44,850 nt of DNA from Escherichia phage phi458. Location: the sequence record OP434518. One strand, given 5' to 3'. A program made the translations under genes and the position numbers. Of this stretch, positions 1-44,315 are shown in pieces (position 1 is the first letter of the stretch; each line of letters starts with the position of its first letter). The notes below the pieces were generated by a model, which made no database searches, was not told the origin of the DNA, and saw nothing but the letters and a program-made list of their open reading frames with translations.

Positions 1-46
1 ATTCGTAATGCGAAGGTCGTAGGTTCGACTCCTATTATCGGCACCA
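1..46 (+). tRNA. thrW: tRNA-Thr (anticodon CGT), 3' portion only; 5' half lies left of the window
   Basis: Anticodon loop TTCGTAA, T-arm GGTTCGACTCC, acceptor 3' strand and CCA ending at 46; recognised as the thrW-type sequence from memory. Confidence 0.7.
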
Positions 47-1967: not shown

Positions 1968-2281
1968 CTTCCATTAATCTCTGAATTGTTGGTTAATACG
2001 CTTGAGGGTGAATGCGAATAATAAAAAAGGAGCCTGTAGCTCCCTGATGATTTTGCTTTTCATGTTCATCGCTCCTTAAAGATGCCGTTTAACATGCCGA
2101 TCGCCAGGCTTAAATGAGTCGGTGTGAATCCCTCAGCGTTACCGTTTCGCGGTGCTTCTTCAGTACGCTACGGCAAATGTTATTGATGCTCCTGTCTGGT
2201 GACAGCCTTCGGGCTTGTATTATGTATAAGTTCTGATAAAAGCCTCCGATATATTAAATTTAAATAACGAAATTCATCTTC

Positions 2282-2920
2282 TTGATAAGTTGTGATAGCA
2301 TCATTAAAAGTTTCAGTTCGTTGAGCAGGGATTACATGGTAAATCAGCAACAGCAACAGCAACAGATTAACGAAAATCTAAAAATTGAGGCAATCCGTTG
2401 GTATCAGAAGCTGCAGGAGATTACTTATCTTGAAGCAGGACAACACATGCGGGCTTTAAATCAGCTCATGTGGCAAATCCCTAGTTTCGTAATTGCTGTC
2501 AATGGTGGGTTGTGGTATGCAACAACACTGGCAAATGAAAGTTCCCTATGGATTATCTTTGCAGTGTTAGCATTGTTTGATTTCACAACAATGATTACAC
2601 TTTATCGCTTAAGGTCTTTAATTGGTTCGAAAATAGCACTACAAAAAAACATTGAAGACCCTTCAAAAAACTATATTTTAAATGAAATTACTAGAGACGC
2701 TGGATTTAAATTGCCCTCTAGCTATGATAATAAGGAAACTGGTTACATAGTAGTGTCGTGCTGGGCAATAATGCTTATTGTTTGCTTCTTTGTTAATATT
2801 GCTGGGGTATGTCATCCAAACTTGTTTTCAAAAGACATTTCACATAATACATACAAAGCAACAATTAAAAATATTGAGTCAGGATTATTTATCGAAGCAA
2901 AATCAGGATTATCAAAGTGA
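2282..2920 (+). CDS. Hypothetical integral membrane protein with poly-Gln tract (start may be ATG 2336)
   Basis: Three hydrophobic helices (IPSFVIAVNGGLWYATTL, LWIIFAVLALFDFTTMITL, YIVVSCWAIMLIVCFFVNIAGV); visibly AT-rich; stop overlaps the next gene's start. Confidence 0.6.
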   Translation: MISCDSIIKSFSSLSRDYMVNQQQQQQQINENLKIEAIRWYQKLQEITYLEAGQHMRALNQLMWQIPSFVIAVNGGLWYATTLANESSLWIIFAVLALFDFTTMITLYRLRSLIGSKIALQKNIEDPSKNYILNEITRDAGFKLPSSYDNKETGYIVVSCWAIMLIVCFFVNIAGVCHPNLFSKDISHNTYKATIKNIESGLFIEAKSGLSK

Positions 2921-3519
2921 CTTCGTGGAAGTTTTATGACAATAATGCTGATCGCTTATTTGCCGATTATATATCACTTGATTTTTACTCTATCTTTCAG
3001 GATGTTGAAGAGTTTATTTTACAATCTAAGGGTGTCTCTTTGGATGTCGGTTCAGGTTCCGGCCGTGATGCTGCTGCGTTAGATGAATTAGGTTATAAAG
3101 TAATAGCTGTTGAACCAAGTGAAAAGATGCGAAATTTGGCATCTTCATATTATAAATCTAACCATATTATATGGTTAGATGATTCATTGCCTTTTCTTCA
3201 TAGTGTTAAAGCAATGAATCTAAAGTTCGACCTTATTTTAGTCAGTGCTGTATGGATGCATCTTTCAAAAAAAGAGCAAAAAATCTCACTAGAGACGCTA
3301 ACTGATCTTTTAACATTGAATGGGAGAATGATAATTACATTGCGCTTGGGACCTCCCGAACCAGATAGAAACATTAACGTTGTTAATACTGAGGAACTTC
3401 TTGAGTTAGCGTCTCAGTTAGGTCTGAAAACATTGCGAGTTACGTCAATAAATAAAGATAGTTTTCAACGTAACCAGATAACTTGGCAGAAAGTTGTATT
3501 ATCAAAAAATAATGAGTAA
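2917..3519 (+). CDS. Class I SAM-dependent methyltransferase (GTG start, GTGA overlap with upstream ORF)
   Basis: Motif I LDVGSGSGRDA followed by an acidic residue after a beta-strand (VIAVEPS); 200 aa; AT-rich codon usage like the upstream membrane gene. Confidence 0.65.
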   Translation: MTSWKFYDNNADRLFADYISLDFYSIFQDVEEFILQSKGVSLDVGSGSGRDAAALDELGYKVIAVEPSEKMRNLASSYYKSNHIIWLDDSLPFLHSVKAMNLKFDLILVSAVWMHLSKKEQKISLETLTDLLTLNGRMIITLRLGPPEPDRNINVVNTEELLELASQLGLKTLRVTSINKDSFQRNQITWQKVVLSKNNE

Positions 3520-3530
3520 ATAACTTAGTA

Positions 3531-4775
3531 TTATTCGCACAGACCGTAGCGTGAAGAGCAAACCTCTATATCGAGACTTGCTTTTACAAGATCGTAGACC
3601 TTGCCACCGCGCCCTGTTTTTGCCCACTCTACGACTTCATAAACACCCGGAGAATTAAGATCTCCACGAGGACCATAAAATCCTGACCAGTCGATGTGTT
3701 GCACATCAGGTTTTAGCCCAAAAAGTTGAATATTTCGACCAAGTGGCAGATTGAACTGTTTCATCCAGCGTTGGCTTATCTCTCCTACGCTCATCCAGTG
3801 TACCCATCTACTAGCAAGGCGTACCTTCAACTCCCATTGTTTGTGCTTTTTGATGTGCTCTGGCCAGCGCGCAGCCGTCTCTGCAATTTCCTCTTTGTTG
3901 CATAGCACGCAATTCATGCAGCCAACACGAGACGCACCTTGCATATAAAGTGGATTTGGCTTAATTCCGAAATATTTGTGAACTGCGAATACGTCCTCAG
4001 CCGTCCATTTGTGGAGCGGCAGGAAGTTGTAGAGAAAATCGGCGTCGCGCATATCGCGGGAAAACCTCTCATATCCAGCGCGCTTAGAGGACTCATCCGC
4101 GCGAACACCAGACCATTGTACGATAACATCGCCAGCATCAAGGAGCGGCTTTATGGCTGCGTCGAAAGCTATCTGAATTTTCAGTTCGTCTGTACAGAAT
4201 CGGTCGCGCAGCATAGGGAACTTGCCATGCAGAAGGGAGCAATCCAAAAAGCTATTACCGGATGGGTGCATAACGGAAAGCGCAGCATCAAGAGCAGTTT
4301 CGAACTCAATTCCCCAGCGTTCTGCTGTGCGCTTCCAGGCTTGCCCGAATTTGGTGTCAGAACGTGCGAGGGAAGGCATGACTATGCCACGGTATGCTCC
4401 CATGCGGATCATCTGTCGTTTAGACCAGTTTTTTTGCAGATAAATTCGTCGTTTGGCAAAATCTTCTTCAGTGTAAATCCGCTTCACAACCTGCACAGGG
4501 CTACAACCGATCTGCTCATGAATGCTCCTGGCGAATTCGACAGTTAGATTATGCTCATTATCCGTGTCTGCCATAACAGCATGTACCTGTTTGCCGAATA
4601 ATGTGTGCGCCACTGCGAGTGTGGCAGTGCTGTCTTTTCCTGCTGAATAATTCACGATTATCTTATGATCATTAGGGATGCGAAATTCATTTATATATCT
4701 GTTGTAGGACTCTTCTATTTCGCGAATTTTCTTGCTGATGTCTGTTGGGACAATAATTATTGCTGCCTCGTTCAT
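3531..4775 (-). CDS. PAPS-reductase/DndC-family PP-loop ATP pyrophosphatase-like protein
   Basis: PP-loop-like NYSAGKDST near the N-terminus; Cys cluster CMNCVLC; 414 aa; in the pL operon where lambda carries orf61/ea8.5/ea22. Confidence 0.6.
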   Translation of the reverse strand: MNEAAIIIVPTDISKKIREIEESYNRYINEFRIPNDHKIIVNYSAGKDSTATLAVAHTLFGKQVHAVMADTDNEHNLTVEFARSIHEQIGCSPVQVVKRIYTEEDFAKRRIYLQKNWSKRQMIRMGAYRGIVMPSLARSDTKFGQAWKRTAERWGIEFETALDAALSVMHPSGNSFLDCSLLHGKFPMLRDRFCTDELKIQIAFDAAIKPLLDAGDVIVQWSGVRADESSKRAGYERFSRDMRDADFLYNFLPLHKWTAEDVFAVHKYFGIKPNPLYMQGASRVGCMNCVLCNKEEIAETAARWPEHIKKHKQWELKVRLASRWVHWMSVGEISQRWMKQFNLPLGRNIQLFGLKPDVQHIDWSGFYGPRGDLNSPGVYEVVEWAKTGRGGKVYDLVKASLDIEVCSSRYGLCE

Positions 4776-4936
4776 ACCGCCTCCCGTTTATTATTTATCT
4801 CCTCAGCCAGCCGCTGTGCTTTCAGGGGATTTCGGATAACAGAAAGGCCGGGAAATACCCAGCCTCGCTTTGTAACGGAGTAGACGAAAGTGATCGTGCC
4901 TACCCGGATATTATCGTGAGGATGCTTCATCGCCAT
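4772..4936 (-). CDS. Small early-left ORF (lambda orf60a-like), 54 aa
   Basis: Hand translation [13 protein letters not shown]...[11 protein letters not shown]; start overlaps the exo stop and stop overlaps the next start (ATGA); not in the ORF track because it is under 60 aa. Confidence 0.45.
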
Positions 4937-5607
4937 TGCTCCCCAAATGCAAAACCAATTTCAGCCAGTGCCTCGTCCATTTTTTCGATGAACTCCGGCA
5001 CCATCTCGTCAAAACTCGCCATGTAATTTTCATCCCGCTCAACCACGACATAATGCAGGCCTTCACGCTTCATTCGTGGGTCATAGTTGGCAAAGTACCA
5101 GGCATCTTTTCGCGTCACCCACATGCTGTACTGCACCTGGGCCATGTAAGCCGACTTTATGGCCTCGAAACCACCGAGCCGGAATTTCATGAAATCCCGG
5201 GAGGTAAACGGGCATTTCAGTTCAAGGCCGTTGCCGTCACTGCATAAACCATCGGGAGAGCAGGCGGTGCGCATACTTTCGTCGCGATAGATGATCGGGG
5301 ATTCAGTAACATTCACGCCGGAAGTGAACTCAAAGAGGGCTCTGGCGTCGTTCTCGTACTGTTTTCCCCAGGCCAGCGCCTTAGCGTTAACTTCCGGAGC
5401 CACACCGGTGCAAACCTCGGCAAGCAGGGTGTGGAAGTAGGACATTTTCATGTCAGGCCATTTCTTTCCGGAGCGGGGTTTTGCTATCACATTGTGAACT
5501 TCTGAAGCGGTGATGACGCCGAGCCGTAATTTGTGCCACGCATCATCCCCCTGTTCGACAGCTCTCACGTCGATCCCGGTACGCTGCAGGATAATGTCCG
5601 GTGTCAT
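4927..5607 (-). CDS. exo: Lambda exonuclease (Red-alpha)
   Basis: 226 aa, near-identical to lambda Exo as recalled ([26 protein letters not shown]...). Confidence 0.95.
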
Positions 5608-6389
5608 GCAGCCACCTTCTGTTCAGAGGCTTTCTGTTTCAGGAATCCAAGAGCTTTCACTGCTTCGGCCTGTGTCAGTTCTGACGATGCGCGAATGTCG
5701 CGGCGAAATATCTGGGAACAGAGCGGCAATAAGTCGTCATCCCATGTTTTATCCAGGGCGATCAGCAGAGTGTTAATCTCCTGCATGGTTTCATCGTTAA
5801 CCGGAGTGATGTCGCGTTCCGGCTGACGTTCTGCAGTGTATGCGGTATTTTCGACAATGCGCTCGGCTTCATCCTTGTCATAGATACCCGCAAATCCGAA
5901 GGCCAGACGGGCACACTGAATCATGGCTTTATGCCGTAACATCCGTTTGGGATGCGACTGCCACGGTCCGGTGATTTCTCTGCCTTCGCGGGTTTTGAAT
6001 GGTTCGCGGCGGCATTCATCCATCCACTCGGTAACGCAGATCGGATGATTACGGTCCTTGCGGTAAATCCGGCATGTACAGGATTCATTGTCCTGCTCAA
6101 AGTCCATGCCATCAAACTGCTGGTTTTCATTGATGATGCGGGACCAGCCATCAACGCCCACCACCGGAACGATGCCATTCTGCTTATCAGGAAAGGCGTA
6201 AATTTCTTTCGTCCACGGATTAAGGCCGTACTGGTTGGCAACGATCAGTAATGCGATGAACTGCGCATCGCTGGCATCACCTTTAAATGCCGTCTGGCGA
6301 AGAGTGGTGATCAGTTCCTGTGGGTCGACAGAATCCATGCCGACACGTTCAGCCAGCTTCCCAGCCAGCGTTGCGAGTGCTGTACTCAT
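5604..6389 (-). CDS. bet: Red-beta single-strand annealing protein
   Basis: 261 aa matching lambda Bet ([48 protein letters not shown]...). Confidence 0.95.
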
Positions 6390-6394
6390 CCGTT

Positions 6395-6811
6395 TTATAC
6401 CTCTGAATCAATATCAACCTGGTGGTGAGCAATGGTTTCAACCATGTACCGGATGTGTTCTGCCATGCGCTCCTGAAACTCAACATCGTCATCAAACGCA
6501 CGGGTAATGGCTTTTTTGCTGGCCCCGTGGCGTTGCAAATGATCGATGCATAGCGATTCAAACAGGTGCTGGGGCAGGCCTTTTTCCATGTCGTCTGCCA
6601 GTTCTGCCTCTTTCTCTTCACGGGCGATCTGCTGGTAGTGACGCGCCCAGCTCTGAGCCTCAAGACGATCCTGAATGTAATAAGCGTTCATGGCTGAACT
6701 CCTGAAATAGCTGTGAAAATATCGTCCGCGAAATGCCGGGCTGATTAGGAAAACAGGGAAGGGGGGTAGTGAATGCTTTTGCTTGATCTCAGTTTCAGTA
6801 TTAATATCCAT
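6395..6811 (-). CDS. gam: Gam, RecBCD inhibitor
   Basis: 138 aa matching lambda Gam ([15 protein letters not shown]...). Confidence 0.95.
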
Positions 6812-7114: not shown

Positions 7115-7483
7115 TCAGGCGGCTTTGATAGTCATATCATCTGGATCAAATATTCCTGATGTATCGATATCGGTAATTCTTATTCCTTCGCTACCATCCA
7201 TTGGAGGCCATCCTTCCTGACCATTTCCATCATTCCAGTCGAACTCACACACAACACCATATGCATTTAAGTCGCTTGAAATTGCTATAAGCAGAGCATG
7301 TTGCGCCAGCATGATTAATACAGCATTTAATACAGAGCCGTGTTTATTGAGTCGGTATTCAGAGTCTGACCAGAAATTATTAATCTGGTGAAGTTTTTCC
7401 TCTGTCATTACGTCATGGTCGATTTCAATTTCTATTGATGCTTTCCAGTCGTAATCAATGATGTATTTTTTGATGTTTGACAT
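7115..7483 (-). CDS. ea10: Ea10 early-left protein
   Basis: 122 aa matching lambda Ea10 (MSNIKKYIIDYDWKASIEIEIDHDVMTEEKLHQINNFW...). Confidence 0.85.
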   Translation of the reverse strand: MSNIKKYIIDYDWKASIEIEIDHDVMTEEKLHQINNFWSDSEYRLNKHGSVLNAVLIMLAQHALLIAISSDLNAYGVVCEFDWNDGNGQEGWPPMDGSEGIRITDIDTSGIFDPDDMTIKAA

Positions 7484-7686
7484 CTATTCATATCCTCATA
7501 GATAAAAAATCGCCCTCACACTGGAGGGCAAAGAAGATTTCCAATAATCAGAACAAGTCGGCTCCTGTTTAGTTACGAGCGACATTGCTCCGTGTATTCA
7601 CTCGTTGGAATGAATACACAGTGCAGTGTTTATTCTGTTATTTATGCCAAAAATAAAGGCCACTATCAGGCAGCTTTGTTGTTCTG

Positions 7687-7866
7687 TTAACCAAGTTCTC
7701 TGGCAATCATTGCCGTCGTTCGTATTGCCCATTTATCGACATATTTCCCATCTTCCATTACAGGAAACATTTCTTCAGGCTTAACCATGCATTCCGATTG
7801 CAGCTTGCATCCATTGCATCGCTTGAATTGTCCACACCATTGATTTTTATCAATAGTCGTAGTCAT
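7687..7866 (-). CDS. ral: Ral restriction-alleviation protein
   Basis: Hand-translated MTTTIDKNQWCGQFKRCNGCKLQSECMVKPEEMFPVMEDGKYVDKWAIRTTAMIARELG; under the ORF-track size cutoff. Confidence 0.8.
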   Translation of the reverse strand: MTTTIDKNQWCGQFKRCNGCKLQSECMVKPEEMFPVMEDGKYVDKWAIRTTAMIARELG

Positions 7867-9855: not shown

Positions 9856-10515
9856 TCACCCAAACGTCTCTTCTGGCCACTGGCTGGCGATAACTTTCCC
9901 TACAACGGAACAGCTATCATTGCATGGGATCATTGGATATTGCGGGTTTAGTGGTTGTAGGAACACCTGACCGCTATCCCTGATCAGTTTCTTGAAGGTA
10001 AACTCGTCACCACCAAGTCTGGCTATGCAGAAATCACCTGGCTCAACAGCCTGCTCAGGGTCAACGAGAATTAACATCCCGTCAGGAAAGCTTGGCTTGG
10101 ATCCTGTTGGTGCGGTCATGGAATTACCTTCAACTTCAAGCCAAAACGCACAATCACTGGCTTTTTTGGTTGTGCTGACCCATCTCTCCGCATCACCTTT
10201 GGTAAAGGTTCTAAGCTCAGGCGAGAACATCCCGGCCTGAACATGAGAAAAAACAGGGTACTCATATTGTTTTTTAACGGGGGCAGATGAGTATTCGCCA
10301 ACAGGTGAAAATGTACCGTCGTGGTTGAATGAGACGTTATCAATACCAAGGTATTTAAACACCACACCAATCTCGTCAAGAGATGGATGACGAGATCCGC
10401 GCAACCAGTGACCAATTCCACCCTGCGTCATACCAAGCTCTTCAGCCAACTTCTCTTGAGTTATGCCGAGCTCTTTCATTCTGGATCTAGCCAGTTCATA
10501 CCATTTCATTTTCAT
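9856..10515 (-). CDS. cI: CI-type repressor (novel HTH N-domain, lambda-type LexA-like C-domain)
   Basis: C-terminal ~130 aa from [15 protein letters not shown] to the end match lambda CI as recalled; N-terminal [25 protein letters not shown] is different. Start chosen at MKMKWYEL; the ORF extends to 10590. Confidence 0.85.
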
Positions 10516-10626
10516 ATCCTTATTATTACGCTCTGTACTAAAACCATCCATGCACAAGATGTATTTTTTGTTTGCATTCCAAAAGTACATATCGTATTAT
10601 TGTCTCATGGTTACTATGGAGGGCAT
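10516..10626. promoter_or_regulatory. OR/pR/pRM divergent control region
   Basis: Between divergent cI and cro; candidate pR TTGCAT-N17-TATTAT; repeated AGTAC..GTA half-sites resemble the pL palindrome. Confidence 0.55.
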
Positions 10627-11287: not shown

Positions 11288-12187
11288 ATGACAAATACAG
11301 CAAAAATACTCAACTTCGGCAGAGGTAACTTTGCCGGACAGGAGCGTAATGTGGCAGATCTCGATGATGGTTACGCCAGACTATCAAATATGCTGCTTGA
11401 GGCTTATTCGGGCGCAGATCTGACCAAGCGACAGTTTAAAGTGCTGCTTGCCATTCTGCGTAAAACCTATGGGTGGAATAAACCAATGGACAGAATCACC
11501 GATTCTCAACTTAGCGAGATTACAAAGTTACCTGTCAAACGGTGCAATGAAGCCAAGTTAGAACTCGTCAGAATGAATATTATCAAGCAGCAAGGCGGCA
11601 TGTTTGGACCAAACAAAAACATCTCAGAATGGTGTATCCCTCAAAACGAGGGAAAATCCCCTAAAACGAGGGATAAAACATCCCTCAAATTGGGGGATTG
11701 CTATCCCTCAAAACAGGGGGACACAAAAGACACTATTACAAAAGAAAAAAGAAAAGATTATTCGTCCGAGAATTCTGGCGAATCCTCTGACCAGCCAGAA
11801 AACGATCTTTCTGTGGTTAAACCGGATGCTGCAATTCAGAGCGGCAGCAAGTGGGGAACAGCAGAAGACCTGACCGCCGCAGAGTGGATGTTTGACATGG
11901 TGAAGACCATCGCGCCATCAGCCAGAAAACCGAATTTTGCTGGGTGGGCTAACGATATCCGCCTGATGCGTGAACGTGACGGACGTAACCACCGCGATAT
12001 GTGTGTGCTTTTCCGCTGGGCCTGCCAGGACAACTTCTGGTCCGGTAACGTGCTGAGTCCGGCCAAACTCCGCGACAAGTGGACCCAGCTCGAAATCAAC
12101 CGTAACAAGCAACAGGCAGGCGTGACAGCCAGCAAACCAAAACTCGACCTGACAAACACTGACTGGATTTACGGGGTGGATTTATGA
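11288..12187 (+). CDS. O: Replication initiator O
   Basis: 299 aa matching lambda O; contains the iteron array. Confidence 0.95.
   Translation: MTNTAKILNFGRGNFAGQERNVADLDDGYARLSNMLLEAYSGADLTKRQFKVLLAILRKTYGWNKPMDRITDSQLSEITKLPVKRCNEAKLELVRMNIIKQQGGMFGPNKNISEWCIPQNEGKSPKTRDKTSLKLGDCYPSKQGDTKDTITKEKRKDYSSENSGESSDQPENDLSVVKPDAAIQSGSKWGTAEDLTAAEWMFDMVKTIAPSARKPNFAGWANDIRLMRERDGRNHRDMCVLFRWACQDNFWSGNVLSPAKLRDKWTQLEINRNKQQAGVTASKPKLDLTNTDWIYGVDL
11636..11765 (+). other. Replication origin (four iterons plus AT-rich region) inside O
   Basis: Four tandem ~18-bp repeats of the TCCCTCAAAACGAGGGA type followed by an A-rich stretch. Confidence 0.85.
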
Positions 12188-15874: not shown

Positions 15875-15949
15875 GGGTCAGTCGCATAAAGGTCATTACG
15901 GAAGGCTGTTAACCTTCTTATCGTGGTTCGAGTCCACGCTGTCCCGCCA
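15875..15949 (+). tRNA. tRNA-like element with GTT (Asn-type) anticodon arm and degenerate D-arm; possible pseudo-tRNA
   Basis: Good anticodon stem GAAGG/CCTTC with loop CTGTTAA, T-arm CGTGG-TTCGAGT-CCACG, acceptor GGGTCAG/CTGTCCC with one mismatch, CCA end; D-stem pairs poorly. Confidence 0.4.
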
Positions 15950-15954
15950 AATAT

Positions 15955-16030
15955 GCTGGTTTAGCTCCAATGGTAGAGCAGTCGCCTTGTAAGCGAATGG
16001 GTAGCGGTTCAAGTCCGTTAACCAGCACCA
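15955..16030 (+). tRNA. Phage tRNA, anticodon TGT by hand folding (Thr-type)
   Basis: 76 nt; perfect 7-bp acceptor stem GCTGGTT/AACCAGC, D-stem GCTC/GAGC, anticodon loop CTTGTAA, T-loop TTCAAGT, CCA end. Confidence 0.7.
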
Positions 16031-37326: not shown

Positions 37327-40194
37327 GTGAATATGGCAGTAAAGATTTCAGGTGTACTGAAAGACGGCACAGGAAAACCGGTACAGAACTGCACAATCCA
37401 GCTGAAAGCAAAACGTAACAGCACCACGGTGGTGGTGAACACGCTGGCCTCAGAAAATCCGGATGAAGCCGGGCGTTACAGCATGGACGTTGAGTACGGT
37501 CAGTACAGCGTTATTCTGTTGGTGGAAGGATTCCCGCCGTCACATGCCGGGACCATCACCGTGTATGAAGATTCCCGACCCGGTACGCTGAATGATTTTC
37601 TCGGTGCCATGACGGAGGATGATGCCCGTCCGGAGGCACTGCGCCGTTTTGAGCTGATGGTGGAAGAGGTGGCGCGTAACGCGTCCGCGGTGGCACAGAA
37701 CACGGCAGCCGCGAAGAAGTCAGCCAGTGATGCCAGCACATCAGCCCGTGAGGCGGCAACCCATGCGACTGATGCTGCAGGCTCAGCACGCGCAGCCAGC
37801 ACGTCAGCCGGACAGGCCGCGTCGTCGGCTCAGTCAGCGACTTCCAGCGCAGGAACGGCATCAACAAAGGCCACTGAAGCATCAAAAAGTGCTGCCGCTG
37901 CAGAGTCCTCAAAAAGCGCGGCAGCTACCAGTGCCAGTGCCGCGAAAACGTCAGAAACGAATGCTGCAGCGTCACAACAATCAGCAGCCACTTCTGCATC
38001 CACCGCGACTACGAAAGCGTCAGAAGCTGCCACCTCAGCCCGGGATGCGGCGGCTTCAAAAGAGGCGGCAAAATCATCAGAAACGAACGCCTCCACAAGC
38101 GCCAGCAGCGCAGCTTCCTCGGCAACGGCGACAGCAAATTCTGCGAAGGCGGCAAAAACGTCCGAGACGAACGCCAAGGCTTCTGAAACGGCAGCGGGAC
38201 AGAGTGCCTCAGCTGCGGCAGGCTCAAAAACAGCGGCTGCGTCGTCTGCCAGTGCCGCGTCAACAAGTGCCGGGCAGGCCTCAGCCAGTGCCACCGCCGC
38301 CGGAAAATCGGCAGAAAGTGCTGCGTCGTCCGCTTCAACAGCCACAACGAAGGCTGGCGAAGCCGCTGTACAGGCCAGCGCAGCAGCGAGGTCTGCTTCC
38401 GCAGCGAAGACATCCGAAACGAATGCGAAAGCGTCGGAAACCCGTGCAGAATCCTCAAAAACGGCAGCCGCATCGTCCGCCAGTTCGGCAGCGTCATCGG
38501 CATCATCTGCGTCTGCTTCAAAAGATGAGGCGACCAGACAGGCGTCAGCAGCGAAGGGCAGCGCCACGACGGCATCCACGAAAGCAACAGAGGCGGCAGG
38601 CAGTGCGACGGCAGCATCTCAGAGCAAAACTGCTGCTGAATCCGCTGCGACCCGTGCGGAAGCTGCTGCTGATCGTGCTGAAGAGATTGCCGGTGCAGTT
38701 GCGATGGAAGACGCAAGCCTTACAACTAAAGGTGTTGTGAAACTTAGCAGTGCTGTTGATAGCACCAGTGAATCGCTGGCCGCAACGCCAAAAGCAGTTA
38801 AAGCAGCCAATGACAATGCGAATAGCAGGGTGCCATCTAACCGAAAAGTTAACGGAAAAGCACTGACTGCGGATATAACATTAACGCCGAAAGATATTGG
38901 TACTTTAAATTCAGTAACGATGTCTTTCTCTGGCGGGGCTGGGTGGTTCAAACTGGCTACGGTTACCATGCCACAAGCGAGTTCCATCGTTTACATCGCA
39001 TTGATTGGTGGCGCTGGTTACAACGTCGGTTCCCCACATCAGGCAGGCATTTCAGAACTGGTTCTACGAGCAGGCAATGGAAACCCCAAAGGAATTACCG
39101 GGGCTTTGTGGAAGCGTACAGCCGTCGGATTAACGAATTTCGCCTGGATCAACACATCCGGCGATACATATGATATTTACGTTGAGATTGGCAATTATGC
39201 GACTCGTGTAAATATCCATTGGGATTGTACTGCAAATGCGACAGTTTCTATTTATACATCGCCAACATATTCAGCGAGTAAGCCTTCCAGCGTTACCGAT
39301 GGTGTTGTTTATACGATGTATAGCACACATCAGAAACCGACGCCGTTAGATATTGGAGCACTGCCAACAACCGGAGGAACAGTTTCAGGTCCGTTGTCTG
39401 TTACAGGTGGATTAACTGGTTCATTGAATGGTAATGCAAGTACAGCCACGAAATTGCAGACGGCAAGATCTATCGGTGGAGTTGTTTTCGACGGTTCTGC
39501 AAATATTAACCTTCCAGGTGTAAACACTACGGGTAATCAGAACACCACTGGTAATGCTGCAACTGCCACAAAACTACAGACTGCACGGAATATCAACGGC
39601 GTTCCGTTTGACGGCACGAAGGATATTACGCTTACGCCTAAAGATCTGGATGCCTACAGCAAAAGCGAAGTACAGAGCGCACTGGCGGGCAAACAACCGC
39701 TGGACAATACGCTGACTAATTTGAGTGGAAAGGATGTAGCTGGTCTTCTCGCATACCTTCAATTGGGAGAAGCGGCAAAACGTAATGTCGGAACCGGTAA
39801 TAATCAACTCCCGGACATGTCCGCATTTGGTATGTCGCGAAACGGACAAACTGCCTGGGATATTCTCCCAAATGGTATGATTCGACAGGTTGGTACTGTG
39901 ACACTGACGCCTGTTGGTAATTTCAACGCAATTACTCTTGGTGGAGTGCTGTACTACACCCATTACTACAGGGTTAATTTCCCCAGACAATTCCCAAATG
40001 CACAAATAGCAACGCTGGCAACACTAGCGAGTTACAGCTTTTCGACCCAGTCATCAATGGCTGGGAAATCACTGGCAACGCATCGCGATACTGATTCTGG
40101 CACTGACGTATCAAGAACGCGATTCACTGTGTCGTATACGACACCCAATCTCGGCGAAATTCCGACTTTGCATTTTGAAGCAATAGGATACTAA
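37327..40194 (+). CDS. stf: Side tail fibre protein with long Ala/Ser/Thr-rich repeat region
   Basis: N-terminus MAVKISGVLKDGTGKPVQNCTIQLKA... matches lambda Stf; about 340 residues of ASxSAxxA-type repeats; divergent C-terminal receptor-binding part. Confidence 0.85.
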   Translation: MNMAVKISGVLKDGTGKPVQNCTIQLKAKRNSTTVVVNTLASENPDEAGRYSMDVEYGQYSVILLVEGFPPSHAGTITVYEDSRPGTLNDFLGAMTEDDARPEALRRFELMVEEVARNASAVAQNTAAAKKSASDASTSAREAATHATDAAGSARAASTSAGQAASSAQSATSSAGTASTKATEASKSAAAAESSKSAAATSASAAKTSETNAAASQQSAATSASTATTKASEAATSARDAAASKEAAKSSETNASTSASSAASSATATANSAKAAKTSETNAKASETAAGQSASAAAGSKTAAASSASAASTSAGQASASATAAGKSAESAASSASTATTKAGEAAVQASAAARSASAAKTSETNAKASETRAESSKTAAASSASSAASSASSASASKDEATRQASAAKGSATTASTKATEAAGSATAASQSKTAAESAATRAEAAADRAEEIAGAVAMEDASLTTKGVVKLSSAVDSTSESLAATPKAVKAANDNANSRVPSNRKVNGKALTADITLTPKDIGTLNSVTMSFSGGAGWFKLATVTMPQASSIVYIALIGGAGYNVGSPHQAGISELVLRAGNGNPKGITGALWKRTAVGLTNFAWINTSGDTYDIYVEIGNYATRVNIHWDCTANATVSIYTSPTYSASKPSSVTDGVVYTMYSTHQKPTPLDIGALPTTGGTVSGPLSVTGGLTGSLNGNASTATKLQTARSIGGVVFDGSANINLPGVNTTGNQNTTGNAATATKLQTARNINGVPFDGTKDITLTPKDLDAYSKSEVQSALAGKQPLDNTLTNLSGKDVAGLLAYLQLGEAAKRNVGTGNNQLPDMSAFGMSRNGQTAWDILPNGMIRQVGTVTLTPVGNFNAITLGGVLYYTHYYRVNFPRQFPNAQIATLATLASYSFSTQSSMAGKSLATHRDTDSGTDVSRTRFTVSYTTPNLGEIPTLHFEAIGY

Positions 40195-40196
40195 AT

Positions 40197-40430
40197 ATGG
40201 AGAATATGTATTTCAGCCCAACGACCGTTGGTTTTTATGTTTCTGAACAAGAGCGACCTGATGATGCGGTTGAAGTCTCGCCAGAGGTGGAGGCATTTTT
40301 GAGGGAGTGTGTTATCTGGGGAGCGGATACATTTAACGTAGAGCGAGATGCAGCAACGGTGACATATCCAACAGAACTGCTTGAATATGTCACCACCTAC
40401 AACGCCCCCGTTAAATATCCTGCGGATTGA
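40197..40430 (+). CDS. Hypothetical 77-aa protein after stf (possible remnant of a tail-fibre chaperone)
   Basis: ORF starts 3 nt after the stf stop; its 3' end overlaps the convergent tfa. Confidence 0.35.
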   Translation: MENMYFSPTTVGFYVSEQERPDDAVEVSPEVEAFLRECVIWGADTFNVERDAATVTYPTELLEYVTTYNAPVKYPAD

Positions 40431-40821
40431 CAGGCCATACGGGTTTTGCTGTATCAACGCGCATCAGCAAGACCCGGTATTTTTTCCATTCAGATAACGC
40501 GGCGGTTTCTTCTGCCGTCGCGATTTCCGCATCAAAAGCATCCTGTCTCCAGGCTATTTCCTTATCAGCCATAGAACGCAATACCGTTCTTTTCTGTTCA
40601 GCCTGAATAATCTGTTGTTCAGCGGAGAGTGGCGGGATATCAATCCACGCAGGATTACCATTTTTATCAGCCCCCAGCGTTTTGCCTTGTGGCGCTACGC
40701 CTGTGTAAATTGCCATTGTTTCATCATCAACATCAACGCCATTTTCAGGCCATGAACCGGCGCTGATATATACCTCTTTTAGTGCTTTCGGATAGAAAGA
40801 GCCTTTATAAAATTTATTCAT
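40411..40821 (-). CDS. tfa: Tail fibre assembly protein, opposite orientation to stf
   Basis: C-terminal motif EIATAEETAALSEWKKYRVLLMRVDT matches the conserved Tfa C-terminus (lambda Tfa ...EAWKKYRVLLNRVDT); start at MNKFYKGSFYP. Confidence 0.8.
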   Translation of the reverse strand: MNKFYKGSFYPKALKEVYISAGSWPENGVDVDDETMAIYTGVAPQGKTLGADKNGNPAWIDIPPLSAEQQIIQAEQKRTVLRSMADKEIAWRQDAFDAEIATAEETAALSEWKKYRVLLMRVDTAKPVWPVNPQDI

Positions 40822-40872
40822 TCTTAATACCCCAGCGCGATAAAACAACAATCTTCGGTGCCCTCTCCGGAT

Positions 40873-40881: not shown

Positions 40882-40962
40882 GGTGATGCTGCCAACTTAC
40901 TGATTTAGTGTATGATGGTGTTTTTGAGGTGCTCCAGTGGCTTCTGTTTCTATCAGCTGTCC
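40882..40962 (+). mobile_element. 81-bp IS1 left-end fragment (canonical IRL), tandem to the full IS1
   Basis: GGTGATGCTGCCAACTTACTGATTTAGTGTATGATGGTG... ends at CAGCTGTCC and is immediately followed by a second IS1 left end. Confidence 0.8.
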
Positions 40963-41017
40963 GGTAATGCTGCCAACTTACTGATTTAGTGTATGATGGT
41001 GATTTTAAGGTGCTTGC

Positions 41018-41293
41018 GTGGCTTCCATTTCCATCAGATGTCCTTCCTGCTCCGCTACTGAAGGCGTGGTGCGTAACGGCAAAAGCACTGCCGGACATCA
41101 GCGCTATCTCTGCTCTCATTGCCGTAAAACATGGCAACTACAGTTCACTTACACCGCCTCTCAACCCGGTACGCACCAGAAAATCATTGATATGGCCATG
41201 AATGGCGTTGGATGTCGCGCCAGTGCACGCATTATGGGCGTTGGCCTCAACACGGTTTTACGTCACTTAAAAAACTCAGGCCGCAGTCGGTAA
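41018..41293 (+). CDS. insA: IS1 InsA
   Basis: 91 aa [43 protein letters not shown]... zinc-finger/HTH. Confidence 0.9.
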
Positions 41294-41715
41294 CCTCGCG
41301 CATACAACCGGGCAGTGATGTGATTGTCTGCGCGGAAATGGACGAACAGTGGGGCTACGTCGGTGCTAAATCACGTCAGCGCTGGCTGTTTTACGCGTAT
41401 GACAGGATACGGAGGACAGTTGTGGCGCACGTTTTCGGTGAACGCACTCTGGCCACACTGGCGCGTCTTCTGAGCCTGCTGTCGGCCTTTGAGGTCGTGG
41501 TATGGATGACGGATGGCTGGCCGCTGTATGAATCCCGCCTGAAGGGAAAGCTGCACGTTATCAGCAAGCGTTACACTCAGCGCATTGAGCGACATAATCT
41601 GAATCTGAGACAACATCTGGCAAGGCTGGGACGGAAGTTACTGTCGTTCTCAAAATCGGTGGAGCTGCATGACAAAGTCATCGGGCATTATCTGAACATA
41701 AAACACTATCAGTAA
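41212..41715 (+). CDS. insB: IS1 InsB frame (transposase made as InsAB' by -1 frameshift)
   Basis: 167-aa frame overlapping the insA 3' end; TTAAAAAAC slippery motif present. Confidence 0.85.
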
Positions 41716-42146
41716 GTTGGAGTCATTACCGGCGACCAGTTCTGAATACTGATATGCGTTCTGCTGGCAATACGCACATTCATCGCGGCATTGTAGCCAG
41801 ATGTTCCACGGTTTCCGGTCGCAAATAAGCCTGCATAGGGAAAAGCAAATGGTAAGGCATATCCAGCATCAGCTCCCTTTTGTGTTGCCACCGTTCCCCA
41901 CTGCAACATAAGTTTCACCGGGTTTCCTGTCGTCGCAATGCATGGAATGTAGATGTAGCCATTCCCTGACATCATTGACCTGAAGCTGTCTAAATCCAGT
42001 AACTTCGAGGCATTATCTGCTCCAACATCTCGTGTTGCGGCGGTCCCTAACTGGAGCGCATTTCGGAAGGCTGATACATCAGAAATATCAGCTCCATTAG
42101 CCGATTTCTGCATAGCTCCGGAGGCTTTATTTATCGTTTCTCCCAA
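41709..42146 (-). pseudogene. Inverted alternative tail-fibre C-terminal segment (stf'), 3' end disrupted by IS1
   Basis: Minus-strand Gly/Thr/Ala-rich fibre-tip-like ORF that runs 21 nt into the IS1 right end before stopping; sits between the inverted tfa and the invertase remnant. Confidence 0.5.
41731..41739. repeat. 9-bp target-site duplication GGCGACCAG, right copy
   Basis: Same 9-mer as 40873-40881, directly after the IS1 right end. Confidence 0.75.
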
Positions 42147-42222: not shown

Positions 42223-42424
42223 ATGATTTACGGGTATGTTCGTGTATCAACAAATCATCAGGATACAGAGTTGCAACGTCTTGCACTTGAGTCAGCTGGC
42301 TGTGAGCGAATTTATGAAGAATATGCCAGTGGCAGAACAGCTAATCGCCCTGTGTTAAAGGAATTAATTACGGTGATGAAAAGTGGAGATGAGTTGATTG
42401 TCTGGAAACTGGACCGGCTGGGAT
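42223..42424 (+). pseudogene. pin: Truncated serine-recombinase DNA invertase (Pin/Gin/Hin family), N-terminal ~67 codons
   Basis: MIYGYVRVSTNHQDTELQRLALESAGCERIYEEYASGRTANRPVLKELITVMKSGDELIVWKLDRLG includes the catalytic-serine motif, then diverges and stops after 92 codons. Confidence 0.75.
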
Positions 42425-42734
42425 TATATAAAACCGCAGACACGTCGTATGCAAGAACTTGCTGCGGCTGGATGGTGGACTTTAGTGCGAGTATTGAATG
42501 ATTTCCATCTATTATAGATTTTACCGTATTTCGGCATGAATGAAACTGAATATCCTCCCACCGACCCTCCATGACTTTACACCACTGTCTCTGGGGCTGC
42601 TATGTGCCAGTAGAGGACGTTGCTAGTGTCAGCCTATGTTAATCAACAGGGAGCAGGTCACACTGTCGTCTCAGAATACCTAGCGCATAGGTCACACGAA
42701 CTTCCAACTGTATTGCTTGTTTTCGTGGCTAAGC

Positions 42735-43889
42735 CTATTTTTGTTGATGATACCAATGCAACATCATCCGGAGCTTCAATAGAGTTGTACTGTCATCATC
42801 CTCAGAACAAAAATTGTATCGCCCGCCTGAATATTCATTTAACTTGTCCAAGTAAAAGCCACCCATTGGGTCATATCTATCAGAGTGGAGCCAAGTAAAC
42901 ATTTTCTGAAGAACGTAATGCAGGGCATTTTTCGGAAGTGTTGAAATCAACACGCCATGCTTAGTTGCTAAATCCTCAATATTCATTTCCTGAAGATTAT
43001 ATCTAATCTCTACTGCAATTGGATGTAGTTTACTTAAAAATACGTCAGCTTCATCCTTGAGATGTGCCTCTTTAACATTCCCCTCGAACAACTTTATTAA
43101 CTCTTCCACTTCCATTCGGTAATAATCGTTATCACCTCGCACCGCAACTTCTGAAAGAAGCAACTTTAACTCAGCATGAATGTTATCAGTAGACGGTATA
43201 ATCTGTTTGGATAGGGTGCTGTAATGTTTTATACGGATTGCTATTACGGAACCCTTTAGGCTTGTTAGATATTTATACCTATCTTCAATATATGTAATTA
43301 GCTCATCGAATTTAATGCCGAAAATAACATCATCTTTCCCTGGCGTGTTGTTGTAAAGGCTTATAGTGAAATCATTTTCATTGAAAGCATGAAAATGAGG
43401 CCAGCTTGCAAACAGTCGCTCACCATCACTATTTTTAAGATTTGTAGGGTGAGCACCAAAGATAGCTCGAATACTCTTAAAGTATGCGTCATCATCCTCA
43501 TGTGAAAGATAGGGCGTTTTATTCTTAAAGACATTCGTTGATTTCTTGAAAGGCCACCTCGCTAACTTATCATCACTCTCAATGATGCGGTGAAGCTGCT
43601 GCAACGCCTCCACAGCAATATCAATAGATGATATAAGGGAGTAAACCTGCATGGCCTTGACATCAATATCTTCCGACAGCTCAGGGAAGTTCATCAGATT
43701 GCGAACAGAAACGCTTATCCAATCCATGCACGAACAGATAGGGCTGAACTGGTTTTTACCATTTCTGTTTATGAAGTAGCTGTAAGCAAACTCCCCTTCA
43801 TTAACCACATCTCGAAAATCAGTTATTAAAGTATCATCAATAGTTACACCAAAATCTGCCTTGGTCATCTTCATGGAAATCACTTTCAA
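42735..43889 (-). CDS. Unrecognised 384-aa cargo protein near attR
   Basis: Long clean ORF in a visibly AT-rich block between the invertase remnant and attR; no motif recognised. Confidence 0.7.
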   Translation of the reverse strand: MKVISMKMTKADFGVTIDDTLITDFRDVVNEGEFAYSYFINRNGKNQFSPICSCMDWISVSVRNLMNFPELSEDIDVKAMQVYSLISSIDIAVEALQQLHRIIESDDKLARWPFKKSTNVFKNKTPYLSHEDDDAYFKSIRAIFGAHPTNLKNSDGERLFASWPHFHAFNENDFTISLYNNTPGKDDVIFGIKFDELITYIEDRYKYLTSLKGSVIAIRIKHYSTLSKQIIPSTDNIHAELKLLLSEVAVRGDNDYYRMEVEELIKLFEGNVKEAHLKDEADVFLSKLHPIAVEIRYNLQEMNIEDLATKHGVLISTLPKNALHYVLQKMFTWLHSDRYDPMGGFYLDKLNEYSGGRYNFCSEDDDSTTLLKLRMMLHWYHQQK

Positions 43890-44267
43890 ATCAGCACACT
43901 TAGAGGTTGATTGTGACCGTTATCATAGGCAAAAACAATTCAGTAGGTTGACCAGCCCTCCCCATAACTCAAAATTGCTCGATTTAAGTATGCATTCCAA
44001 CTTCCGCTCCTCGCTCATAACAGACATTCACTACAGTTATGGTAGAAGGTATGCATGCTGGGTGGGGAAAGTATGAAGGAAAAGAAGGCTGCTGTGTCGT
44101 TTGACATCACTGCAATCTTCTTATTGGTTATGCGGGTCGTAGTGGGACAAAACTGAGACACATAAGGCCTAGCAATGGCTTGCAAGGCTTTACATGTTTT
44201 GATGTGGTGGGACTTGTGAGCGCAGTGTTGATGGGGTAATGCTTTGAATTAGAAGCGGATTCTTATA

Positions 44268-44315
44268 ATTCGTAATGCGAAGGTCGTAGGTTCGACTCCT
44301 ATTATCGGCACCATT
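44268..44315 (+). repeat. attR core (48-bp direct repeat, copy 2)
   Basis: Identical to 1-48; upstream sequence is not tRNA-like, so this is only the duplicated tRNA 3' segment. Confidence 0.9.

What the first reader, a model, noticed from the sequence alone, without database searches (positions are those of the whole stretch)
42735..43889. AT-rich 384-aa orphan gene between the tail-fibre module and attR
The stretch between the last tail-fibre gene and attR is a classic site for cargo genes. This ORF is long and uninterrupted, visibly more AT-rich than the structural genes, read opposite to the tail operon, and lies beside a truncated invertase, which suggests rearrangement at acquisition. 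I could not assign any family.
Basis: partly seen in the sequence, partly recalled or inferred. Interest (0 to 1): 0.75.

Follow-up and report, generated by a model that had tools for sequence, protein, structure and literature searches.

The report
Unannotated prophage cargo gene, probable phage defence
The last gene before the right end of this E. coli-type prophage is a real, well-conserved gene of a widespread but undescribed protein family that sits in a slot where other strains carry proven anti-phage systems, so it is most likely an untested single-gene phage-defence protein.

Summary
The ORF is real: 42735..43874 on the minus strand, 379 aa from ATG (384 aa from the TTG at 43889). GC is 38.6% against 50.3% for the prophage. 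dN/dS is 0.13 against a 71%-identical E. fergusonii homologue.

It is not an orphan. About 670 50%-identity clusters exist in Gammaproteobacteria, Campylobacterota and Leptospiraceae, on prophages, conjugative plasmids and islands. None hits Pfam, NCBIfam, PHROGs or PADLOC. A confident AlphaFold model (pLDDT 92) has no significant PDB or viral-structure match.

The gene is the only occupant of a ~1.5-kb variable slot between a conserved 95-bp boundary element and the conserved attR arm of a thrW-integrated lambdoid prophage. Only 42 of 5,426 complete E. coli genomes carry it. In other strains the slot holds retron Ec48, validated system DS-15, a type II R-M, or DUF262 and DUF4145 proteins.

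The exact protein (WP_000784327.1) is listed in DefensePredictor (Science 2026) as a "predicted novel defense gene" and was not tested.

An invariant R136-x5-H142 motif and the helix topology resemble HEPN RNases. Every sequence, profile and fold test for HEPN membership was negative or inconclusive.

The truncated invertase is real but is not tied to this gene's acquisition.

The parts
42735..43874 (-). Coding sequence of the 379-aa protein (identical to RefSeq WP_000784327.1). An alternative upstream TTG at 43889 would give 384 aa.
   Evidence: ORF list. RefSeq annotation of the same gene in L001-L003. N-termini of homologues align to the ATG. dN/dS 0.13. AF2 pLDDT 92.
43449..43469 (-). Codons R136-A-I-F-G-A-H142, the family signature [IL]R[AS]xFGAH[PS]xN. 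This is an Rx5H motif at the C-terminal end of helix 128-141.
   Evidence: R136 is conserved in 99% and H142 in 100% of 219 full-length members. Helix boundaries come from the AF2 model. HEPN criteria are taken from PMC3710099.
43875..44000 (-). Upstream region specific to the cargo module, the presumed 5' UTR and promoter. No convincing sigma-70 promoter or strong Shine-Dalgarno sequence was found.
   Evidence: Similarity to other thrW prophages starts only at about 43999-44011. The promoter scan found nothing on the minus strand here above chance.
44001..44267 (.). Conserved attR-proximal arm (the phage attP arm), shared by thrW-integrating elements whatever their cargo.
   Evidence: Present in 2,835 of 5,426 complete E. 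coli genomes, including Sakai Sp1, whereas the gene is in only 42.
44268..44313 (+). attR core: a direct repeat of the 3' end of tRNA-Thr (thrW), identical to attL at window 1-46.
   Evidence: Exact 25-mer found twice against 0 expected. Alignment of the two ends.
42431..42524 (.). Conserved ~95-bp module-boundary element. It contains a hairpin (CCGCAGAC...TGCTGCGG) followed by a U-run on the minus strand, which is a possible terminator for the gene. This is the left junction of the cargo module.
   Evidence: Shared by the window, the prfC-site prophage L024 and the R-M-carrying thrW prophages. In the latter a related copy also lies on the other side of the GIY-YIG/MTase/REase block. RNA fold -14.2 kcal/mol, z -1.2, not significant on its own.
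42525..42734 (-). 3' untranslated part of the cargo module, between the stop codon and the boundary element.
   Evidence: Identical to L001 and unrelated to L024.
42223..42430 (+). Truncated pin-type serine invertase. The N-terminal ~69 aa are intact up to 'KLDRLG'. It belongs to the tail-fibre inversion module, not to the cargo module.
   Evidence: Pfam Resolvase positions 1-76 of 145, E 1.3e-18. 100% identical, with the same truncation, in strain 19451123 and others.

Best explanation
The gene is mobile cargo of a thrW-integrated lambdoid prophage and the only gene in a ~1.5-kb exchangeable slot just inside attR. It encodes a soluble, mostly alpha-helical 379-aa protein of a widespread, undescribed family that acts alone, with no conserved partner gene.

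The most likely function is single-gene anti-phage defence of the abortive-infection type. The proposed mechanism is as follows. The N-terminal half (about residues 15-225) carries the active centre, built around the invariant R136-x5-H142 at the end of helix 128-141. Other near-invariant residues are D51/W52, D85/E89, D128 and S157/W158. The C-terminal helical domain (about 232-377, with R246, Q295, Y320 and K324) acts as the sensing or regulatory part. On infection the protein would degrade nucleic acid, most plausibly RNA in a metal-independent, HEPN-like manner, halting phage production.

What is shown:
- The gene is real and under purifying selection.
- The family exists and has no annotation.
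- It is cargo, it is polymorphic, and it sits in a slot that holds known defence systems in other strains.
- It is predicted as defensive by an independent machine-learning model.
- The residues listed above are conserved.

What is inferred:
- Defence function, about 0.55.
- Nuclease activity, about 0.35.
- HEPN-like RNase chemistry, about 0.25.
- The split into sensor and effector domains.
For: Real, constrained gene:
-, and (dN/dS 0.13).

Cargo status:
- GC 0.386 against 0.503 for the prophage.
- Present in 42 of 5,426 genomes, against 2,835 for the flanking att arm.
- Bounded by a conserved boundary element and the att arm.

Occupants of the same slot in other strains:
- Retron Ec48 plus a DUF4145 protein.
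- WP_000957441, WP_060581740 and WP_001619161, which are DS-15, experimentally validated.
- GIY-YIG, 5mC MTase and type II REase.
- DUF262 proteins.

Contexts of distant homologues:
- Next to Dsr1 in Vibrio (PADLOC E=0).
- Near PDC-S06 and Mrr in Klebsiella.
- Beside an Alw26I-type R-M in Aliarcobacter.
- Beside type I HsdM.
- In a P2-like prophage between ogr and gpD.
- On many conjugative plasmids.
- No recurrent partner gene.

Independent prediction:
- DefensePredictor lists the exact protein at log-odds 8.17 and the plasmid homologue at 12.36, both as 'Predicted novel defense gene'.
- Tested units with similar scores validated at 21/39 and 12/16.

Active-site-like conservation:
- D128 and H142 100%; R136 99%; D85, S157, W158 and R246 98%.

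HEPN-like features, judged against PMC3710099:
- The motif lies at the end of a helix and the start of the following loop.
- A long insert precedes that helix.
- Conserved acidic residues lie in the preceding helix.
- The family is linked to R-M systems.
Against: - No experiment exists. The protein was not among the 94 units tested in PMC13092281, and about half of similarly scored predictions failed.
- There is no hit to any PADLOC, Pfam, NCBIfam or PHROG model.
- HEPN membership is unsupported by sequence. hhalign probabilities were below 1% against three HEPN proteins and a DUF4145 profile.
- The residue after R136 is A or S, not the usual polar N, D or H.
- No promoter or strong ribosome-binding site was recognised.
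- Guilt by association cannot separate defence from counter-defence or addiction functions.
Confidence: 0.5

Rival explanations
1. It is a defence or conflict protein, but with a new fold and chemistry unrelated to HEPN. For example, it could be a new nucleotide- or nucleic-acid-modifying enzyme, or a sensor that blocks a phage process. The Rx5H resemblance would then be coincidental.
For: - No significant structural neighbour in the PDB or BFVD despite pLDDT 92.
- All profile tests against HEPN were negative.
- Many more invariant polar and aromatic residues than a typical HEPN family.
- DefensePredictor found no HHblits or Foldseek hit either.
Against: - The motif position and helix topology do fit the published HEPN description.
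- HEPN families are notoriously undetectable from one another by sequence.
Confidence: 0.28
2. It serves the mobile element rather than the host. It could be an anti-defence (for example anti-restriction) factor, or an addiction or stabilisation toxin that favours retention of the prophage, plasmid or island.
For: - Found only on mobile elements.
- On IncI-type plasmids it lies near partition and stability genes and a PIN-domain protein.
- It often sits beside R-M systems.
- DefensePredictor false positives include toxins and immunity proteins.
Against: - No adjacent small antitoxin-like gene, and no conserved partner.
- Not in a plasmid leading region, where anti-defence genes cluster (the clustering is my own knowledge).
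- A 379-aa protein with an enzyme-like conserved core is atypical for known anti-restriction proteins.
- In the prophage it lies at the end distal from the early operons.
Confidence: 0.15
3. It is an accessory component (regulator, specificity or repair factor) of the neighbouring 5mC-MTase / type II REase system seen in other E. coli strains. In this window it would be a leftover after the R-M genes were lost.
For: - In L001-L003 it lies upstream of the REase and is co-oriented with it.
Against: - A 560-bp gap separates it from the REase.
- The R-M occurs without the gene (L026).
- The gene occurs without any R-M in this window, in the P2-like prophage, and in the Vibrio, Proteus and Edwardsiella loci.
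- It remains intact under purifying selection when alone.
Confidence: 0.05
4. It is ordinary non-defence cargo (a metabolic, virulence or lysogenic-conversion function), or a phage structural or tail-fibre-related protein.
For: - It is located next to the tail-fibre genes.
- Many morons are not defence genes.
Against: - No PHROG or Pfam structural hit.
- No full-length homologue in 50,697 phage genome records.
- No signal peptide or transmembrane features are evident in a hydrophilic, acidic sequence.
- It occurs on plasmids and in non-phage islands.
Confidence: 0.05

Closest known systems
Single-protein HEPN abortive-infection systems (AbiD/AbiF 'Abi_2', AbiJ, AbiU2, AbiV, ApeA, DUF4145 proteins)
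   Same: - A stand-alone gene on prophages, plasmids and islands.
- Frequently beside R-M systems.
- A mostly helical protein.
- A conserved Arg-x5-His at the end of a helix followed by a loop, a long insert before that helix, and conserved acidic residues in the preceding helix.
   Different: - No detectable sequence or profile similarity.
- Structural similarity is not above background.
- A small (A/S) rather than polar residue follows the Arg.
- There are many additional invariant residues, and a three-stranded sheet follows the motif.
DefensePredictor 'predicted novel defense genes' and the validated DS systems (DeWeirdt, Mahoney & Laub, Science 2026, PMC13092281)
   Same: - The exact protein (WP_000784327.1) and its plasmid homologue (WP_001459672.1) are in that paper's prediction tables.
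- The validated DS-15 occupies the same prophage slot in another strain.
   Different: - This protein was not cloned or tested, has no DS name, and its motifs are absent from the validated protein sequences.
- No mechanism or family description exists.
Defence-gene hotspots of temperate phages: P2/P4 hotspots, and the lambda b-region between tail fibres and att (my own knowledge of Rousset et al. 2022 and lambda genetics)
   Same: - A positionally fixed, highly variable slot flanked by conserved phage sequence.
- Different strains carry different defence systems there.
- A 71%-identical homologue sits in a P2-like prophage.
   Different: - This slot belongs to thrW-integrating lambdoid and pin-bearing prophages.
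- It is delimited by a 95-bp hairpin-containing boundary element and the attP arm.
- It has not, to my knowledge, been described as a hotspot.

Membership tests
HEPN superfamily (RNases) | Conserved Rx4-6H motif | tested here: met
   R136-x5-H142. R is conserved in 99% and H in 100% of 219 full-length members, and the motif is kept in the most divergent members.
HEPN superfamily (RNases) | Motif at the end of core helix 3 and the start of the next loop; an insert between helices 2 and 3; a conserved acidic residue in helix 2 (PMC3710099) | tested here: met
   In the AF2 model, helix 128-141 ends at H142, loop 99-127 precedes it, and D85 (98%) and E89 (92%) lie in helix 70-98. This rests on the model only, because no coordinates were available to check spatial proximity.
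HEPN superfamily (RNases) | Polar residue (N/D/H) immediately after the Arg | tested here: not met
   Position 137 is Ala in 88% and Ser in 10% of members.
HEPN superfamily (RNases) | Significant sequence or profile similarity to a recognised HEPN family | tested here: not met
   No Pfam, PADLOC or NCBIfam hit for the protein or for any of 78 members. hhalign probabilities were 0.1-0.3% against three HEPN-annotated proteins and a DUF4145 profile.
HEPN superfamily (RNases) | Significant structural similarity to HEPN domains | tested here: inconclusive
   [not shown]
HEPN superfamily (RNases) | Metal-independent RNA cleavage leaving 2',3'-cyclic phosphate | not testable with these tools
   This needs biochemistry.
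Catalogued anti-phage defence systems (PADLOC-DB v2) | Match to a model of a known or candidate defence protein | tested here: not met
   0 families at E<=1 for the protein and for the 623-aa fusions.
Experimentally validated defence systems of PMC13092281 (DS-1 to DS-45) | Listed among tested units with a protective phenotype | tested here: not met
   The accession is absent from Table S6 and the family motifs are absent from the Table S8 sequences. It appears only in prediction Table S5, with the homologue in Table S10.
Prophage cargo ('moron') in a variable hotspot | Lies between conserved phage flanks, has deviant composition, is present or absent among related prophages, and alternative cargo occupies the same position | tested here: met
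   for the flanks and composition. for the alternative occupants.
   No PHROG or Pfam structural hit. No full-length homologue in the phage genome collection.
Type II toxin-antitoxin toxin | Adjacent, co-transcribed small antitoxin gene that is conserved across loci | tested here: not met
   No conserved neighbour in 10 independent contexts. The upstream sequence is the conserved att arm.

The most novel reading that the evidence does not exclude
The family is a new single-protein anti-phage immune effector. Its fold and catalytic centre (invariant D128, R136, H142 and S157/W158, plus D51/W52 and D85) are unrelated to HEPN or to any solved structure. It would be a new enzymatic mechanism of immunity, spread on prophages, plasmids and islands from Enterobacterales to Campylobacterota and Leptospira.
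Probability: 0.25. Interest if true: 0.7.

Novelty: new variant of a known kind. Interest (0 to 1): 0.5.

Why it matters
If the gene protects against phage, it adds a broadly distributed single-gene immune family with no annotated domain and no solved structural relative. That would make it a candidate for new nuclease chemistry or a very divergent HEPN branch.

It would also define a practical hunting ground. The slot between a 95-bp boundary element and the thrW attP arm holds retron Ec48, DS-15, R-M systems, and DUF262 and DUF4145 proteins in different strains, so other unknown occupants of that slot are good defence candidates.

The gene is short, self-contained and from E. coli-type DNA, so the decisive experiment is easy.

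The interest is tempered in two ways. It is one of hundreds of similar computational predictions, and it has already been flagged, though not tested, in a 2026 supplementary table.

Tried and rejected
- **HMM searches.** The protein, 78 family members and 10 divergent members were searched against Pfam. The protein was also searched against PADLOC, PHROGs and NCBIfam. Only noise was found.
- **PDB sequence-profile search.** Only spurious haemagglutinin matches.
- **HEPN membership by hhalign.** Three HEPN-annotated proteins and a DUF4145 profile gave no signal.
- **A conserved partner gene.** I first suspected a recombinase, because Klebsiella has a resolvase upstream and the window has a pin fragment. 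This was rejected: the upstream genes elsewhere are DUF6037, Endonuclease I, an integrase fragment or DUF6765.
- **Rosetta-stone inference from the 623-aa fusions.** The N-terminal domain is a large unannotated alpha/beta family. My PD..ExK (REase) guess from 'FLDPDNGLEVK' was not confirmed by the predicted secondary structure. A C-terminal DUF6577 fusion is also uninformative.
- **Promoter and terminator scans.** Nothing above chance. The hairpin fold was not significant on its own.
- **Literature searches by accession.** No hits in main texts. A hotspot literature search found nothing specific.
- **Pin truncation as a scar of acquisition.** Rejected.

Full report
**1.

The six-frame ORF list shows an uninterrupted minus-strand ORF at 42735..43889 (384 aa from TTG). 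RefSeq annotates the same gene in other E. coli strains from the ATG at window 43874 (379 aa, WP_000784327.1, 'hypothetical protein'). The N-termini of homologues align to that ATG.

The gene has 38.6% GC. The whole prophage has 50.3% and the structural genes 54.1%. Only 2.3% of equally long windows are as AT-rich.

It is a real gene:
- It has hundreds of homologues.
- dN/dS against a 71%-identical E. fergusonii homologue is 0.13.
- AlphaFold2 models it at pLDDT 92 and pTM 0.83.

**2. The setting is a complete prophage at thrW**

- The window starts inside tRNA-Thr (thrW). The 46-bp 3' end of thrW (window 1-46) is repeated exactly at 44268-44313.
- A tyrosine integrase lies at 61-1224.
- A CI-like repressor lies at 9856-10590.
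- The tail fibre (phage_tail_N) lies at 37327-40194.
- This is followed by a Caudo_TAP assembly gene, an IS1, an inverted gp53-like tail-fibre segment, and a serine invertase truncated after about 69 residues (Resolvase positions 1-76 of 145).
- To the right of attR are the yagP-like LysR fragment and paoD.

**3. It is not an orphan**

- A word-indexed search found 146 relatives at 35-98% identity, nearly all 360-385 aa.
- An exhaustive profile search of 1.84 billion cluster representatives found 670 at E<=1e-3, of which 471 were at E<=1e-10.
- Hosts include Escherichia, Atlantibacter, Leclercia, Citrobacter, Klebsiella, Pantoea, Proteus, Edwardsiella, Vibrio, Photobacterium, Marinomonas, Methylophaga, Aliarcobacter and Leptospiraceae.
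- tblastn also finds 41%-identical copies on many conjugative plasmids of E. coli, Salmonella, Shigella and Klebsiella.
- There is no full-length copy in 50,697 phage genome records.
- Every source calls the protein 'hypothetical'.
- No member hits Pfam, and the window protein hits nothing in PADLOC, PHROGs or NCBIfam.

**4. Anatomy of the cargo slot**

DNA comparison with complete E. coli genomes shows three layers.

- *The att arm.* The ~260 bp next to attR (about 44000-44267) occurs in 2,835 of 5,426 genomes. It is the conserved attP arm of thrW-integrating elements.
- *The gene and its flanks.* The region from 42525 to about 44000 occurs in only 42 genomes.
- *The left boundary.* At 42431-42524 there is a ~95-bp element with a hairpin. 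It is shared with a lambdoid prophage integrated at prfC (strain 19451123) and with thrW prophages that carry a restriction-modification block. In the latter, a related copy also lies on the far side of that block.

The prfC prophage has the identical truncated pin and hairpin but carries DinI instead of this gene. Truncated pin copies also adjoin other cargo. The pin truncation is therefore a feature of the tail module. It is not a scar of this gene's arrival. The exchange point is the boundary element.

**5. What other strains carry in the same slot**

| Strains | Occupants of the slot |
|---|---|
| ETEC4073, ECE313, A0 34/86 | GIY-YIG protein, 5mC methyltransferase, type II restriction endonuclease, then this gene |
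| 2017-03-3CC | The same R-M without this gene |
| EC6563 | DUF4145 protein and retron Ec48 |
| KMi012 | 630-aa DUF262 protein |
| Ec-2977 | DUF262 protein plus WP_000957441, WP_060581740 and WP_001619161 |
| Sakai Sp1, 2 HS-C | Regulators, a helicase and IS elements |

The three Ec-2977 proteins are exactly those of DS-15, a system validated experimentally in PMC13092281 (Table S6 row AAA1). The slot is a defence-gene hotspot, and this gene is one of its alternative occupants.

**6. Contexts of distant homologues point the same way, with no constant partner**

- Klebsiella aerogenes: a small island with two resolvase genes, a PDC-S06 candidate ATPase and an Mrr nuclease.
- Vibrio harveyi: directly upstream of Dsr1.
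- Aliarcobacter: an island with an Eco57I/TaqI-type methylase, a 5mC methylase and an Alw26I-type endonuclease.
- A metagenomic fusion protein: next to AlpA genes and type I HsdM.
- E. fergusonii: in a P2-like prophage between ogr and gpD.
- Proteus: 4 nt downstream of a DUF6037 gene. Edwardsiella: after an Endonuclease I gene, beside TraN.
- No neighbour recurs across these loci, so the protein works on its own.
- Rare variants are fused to an unannotated ~240-aa alpha/beta domain (N-terminal) or to DUF6577 (C-terminal).

**7. Independent prediction in the literature**

DefensePredictor (DeWeirdt, Mahoney & Laub, Science 2026, PMC13092281) lists WP_000784327.1 in Table S5. Its mean log-odds is 8.17, its category is 'Predicted novel defense gene', and it has no HHblits or Foldseek hit. 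The plasmid homologue WP_001459672.1 appears in Table S10 with log-odds 12.36.

Neither protein is among the 94 units tested, and the family motifs are absent from the validated sequences.

From Table S6 I counted the outcomes of tested units with similar scores:
- Within +/-2 log-odds of 8.17: 21 validated and 18 not (54%).
- Within +/-2 log-odds of 12.36: 12 validated and 4 not (75%).

This gives an empirical prior of roughly one half to three quarters. The positional evidence above is partly independent of it.

**8. The protein itself**

The model has the following elements:
- Three long N-terminal helices (15-34, 43-61, 70-98).
- A long conserved loop (99-127).
- Helix 128-141.
- A three-stranded sheet (153-187).
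- A long helix (189-223).
- A C-terminal helical domain (232-377).

Conservation across 219 full-length members:

| Residues | Conservation |
|---|---|
| D128, H142 | 100% |
| W52, F116 | about 100% |
| R136, F139 | 99% |
| D85, S157, W158, R246 | 98% |
| D51 | 97% |

This pattern of polar and aromatic invariants suggests an enzyme or ligand site acting on a nucleotide or nucleic acid. It does not look like a structural protein.

No solved or viral predicted structure resembles the whole protein:
- Foldseek against the PDB gave a best E of 0.18.
- Foldseek against BFVD gave a best E of 0.06.

**9. The HEPN lead**

The signature [IL]R[AS]xFGAH[PS]xN contains R136-x5-H142. The HEPN survey (PMC3710099) describes the following features:
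- The Rx4-6H motif sits at the end of core helix 3 and the start of the next loop.
- Inserts between helices 2 and 3 are frequent.
- Helix 2 carries a conserved acidic residue.
- In Csx1, a beta-hairpin follows the motif.
- HEPN genes are frequently linked or fused to R-M components.

Against this:
- The residue after the Arg is Ala or Ser rather than polar.
- hhalign against three HEPN-annotated proteins and a DUF4145 profile gives probabilities below 1%.

I therefore do not file the protein as a HEPN member. I keep 'works like a HEPN abortive-infection RNase' as the single most likely mechanism, at about 0.25.

**10. Verdict**

The best explanation is an untested, stand-alone anti-phage defence gene of a new family, sitting in a prophage defence hotspot (about 0.5-0.55). 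A nuclease, possibly HEPN-like, is the inferred mechanism. The rivals are:
- a new non-HEPN chemistry within a defence role;
- an anti-defence or addiction role for the mobile element;
- an R-M accessory role, largely refuted by the gene's independent distribution;
- non-defence cargo.

It is a solid candidate and easy to test. It is not unique among the many current predictions, and it has already been flagged computationally.

Noticed in passing
window 42431-42524; also L001 ~7825-7866 and ~11998-12090; L024 ~7420-7520: A conserved ~95-bp boundary element with a hairpin (AAACCGCAGACACGTCGTATGCAAGAACTTGCTGCGG) recurs at the junctions between tail-module genes and different cargo blocks, in prophages at two different att sites (thrW and prfC). 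Weaker (~78%) copies lie near ykgJ/yagU in L001-L003. It looks like a module-exchange linker and possibly a bidirectional terminator.
   Followed up: partly
L028 (E. coli Ec-2977) 3615-5516; L017 (EC6563) 1970-6464: The slot just inside the thrW attR arm carries the experimentally validated DS-15 genes in one strain, and retron Ec48 plus a DUF4145 (HEPN-family) protein in another. DUF262 proteins next to truncated pin genes occur in L025 and L028. To my knowledge this hotspot has not been described as such.
   Followed up: partly
window ~40960-41730: An IS1 copy (insA 41018-41293, insB' 41212-41715) is inserted in the invertible tail-fibre segment, between the minus-strand tail-fibre assembly gene (40411-40851) and the gp53-like C-terminal segment (41709-42146). 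Otherwise identical prophages lack it. With pin truncated, the tail-fibre switch is presumably frozen.
   Followed up: partly
window 2282-4775: A second low-GC block (37-40% GC) lies next to the integrase at the attL end. It has a 212-aa protein with no Pfam hit, a SAM-dependent methyltransferase (2917-3519) and a 414-aa PAPS-reductase-like protein (3531-4775, minus strand). This may be another cargo or DNA-modification module.
   Followed up: no
window 15875-16030: Two phage-borne tRNA genes, tRNA-Asn(GTT) and tRNA-Thr(TGT), lie 5 nt apart inside the prophage.
   Followed up: no
[not shown]
   Followed up: partly
L015 (IncI-gamma/K1 plasmid pHNAHS65I-1) 1-8080: The 41%-identical plasmid homologue (WP_001459672.1) lies divergent from a 393-aa PIN-domain protein. 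It is next to three large hypothetical proteins with no PADLOC hit. This may be an unrecognised plasmid defence cluster.
   Followed up: no
window 37327-40194: The tail-fibre gene has a long Ala/Ser/Thr-rich repetitive central region. This region generates several long spurious overlapping ORFs in other frames (for example 37727-38740 plus strand, and 37830-38579 and 38009-38716 minus strand).
   Followed up: no
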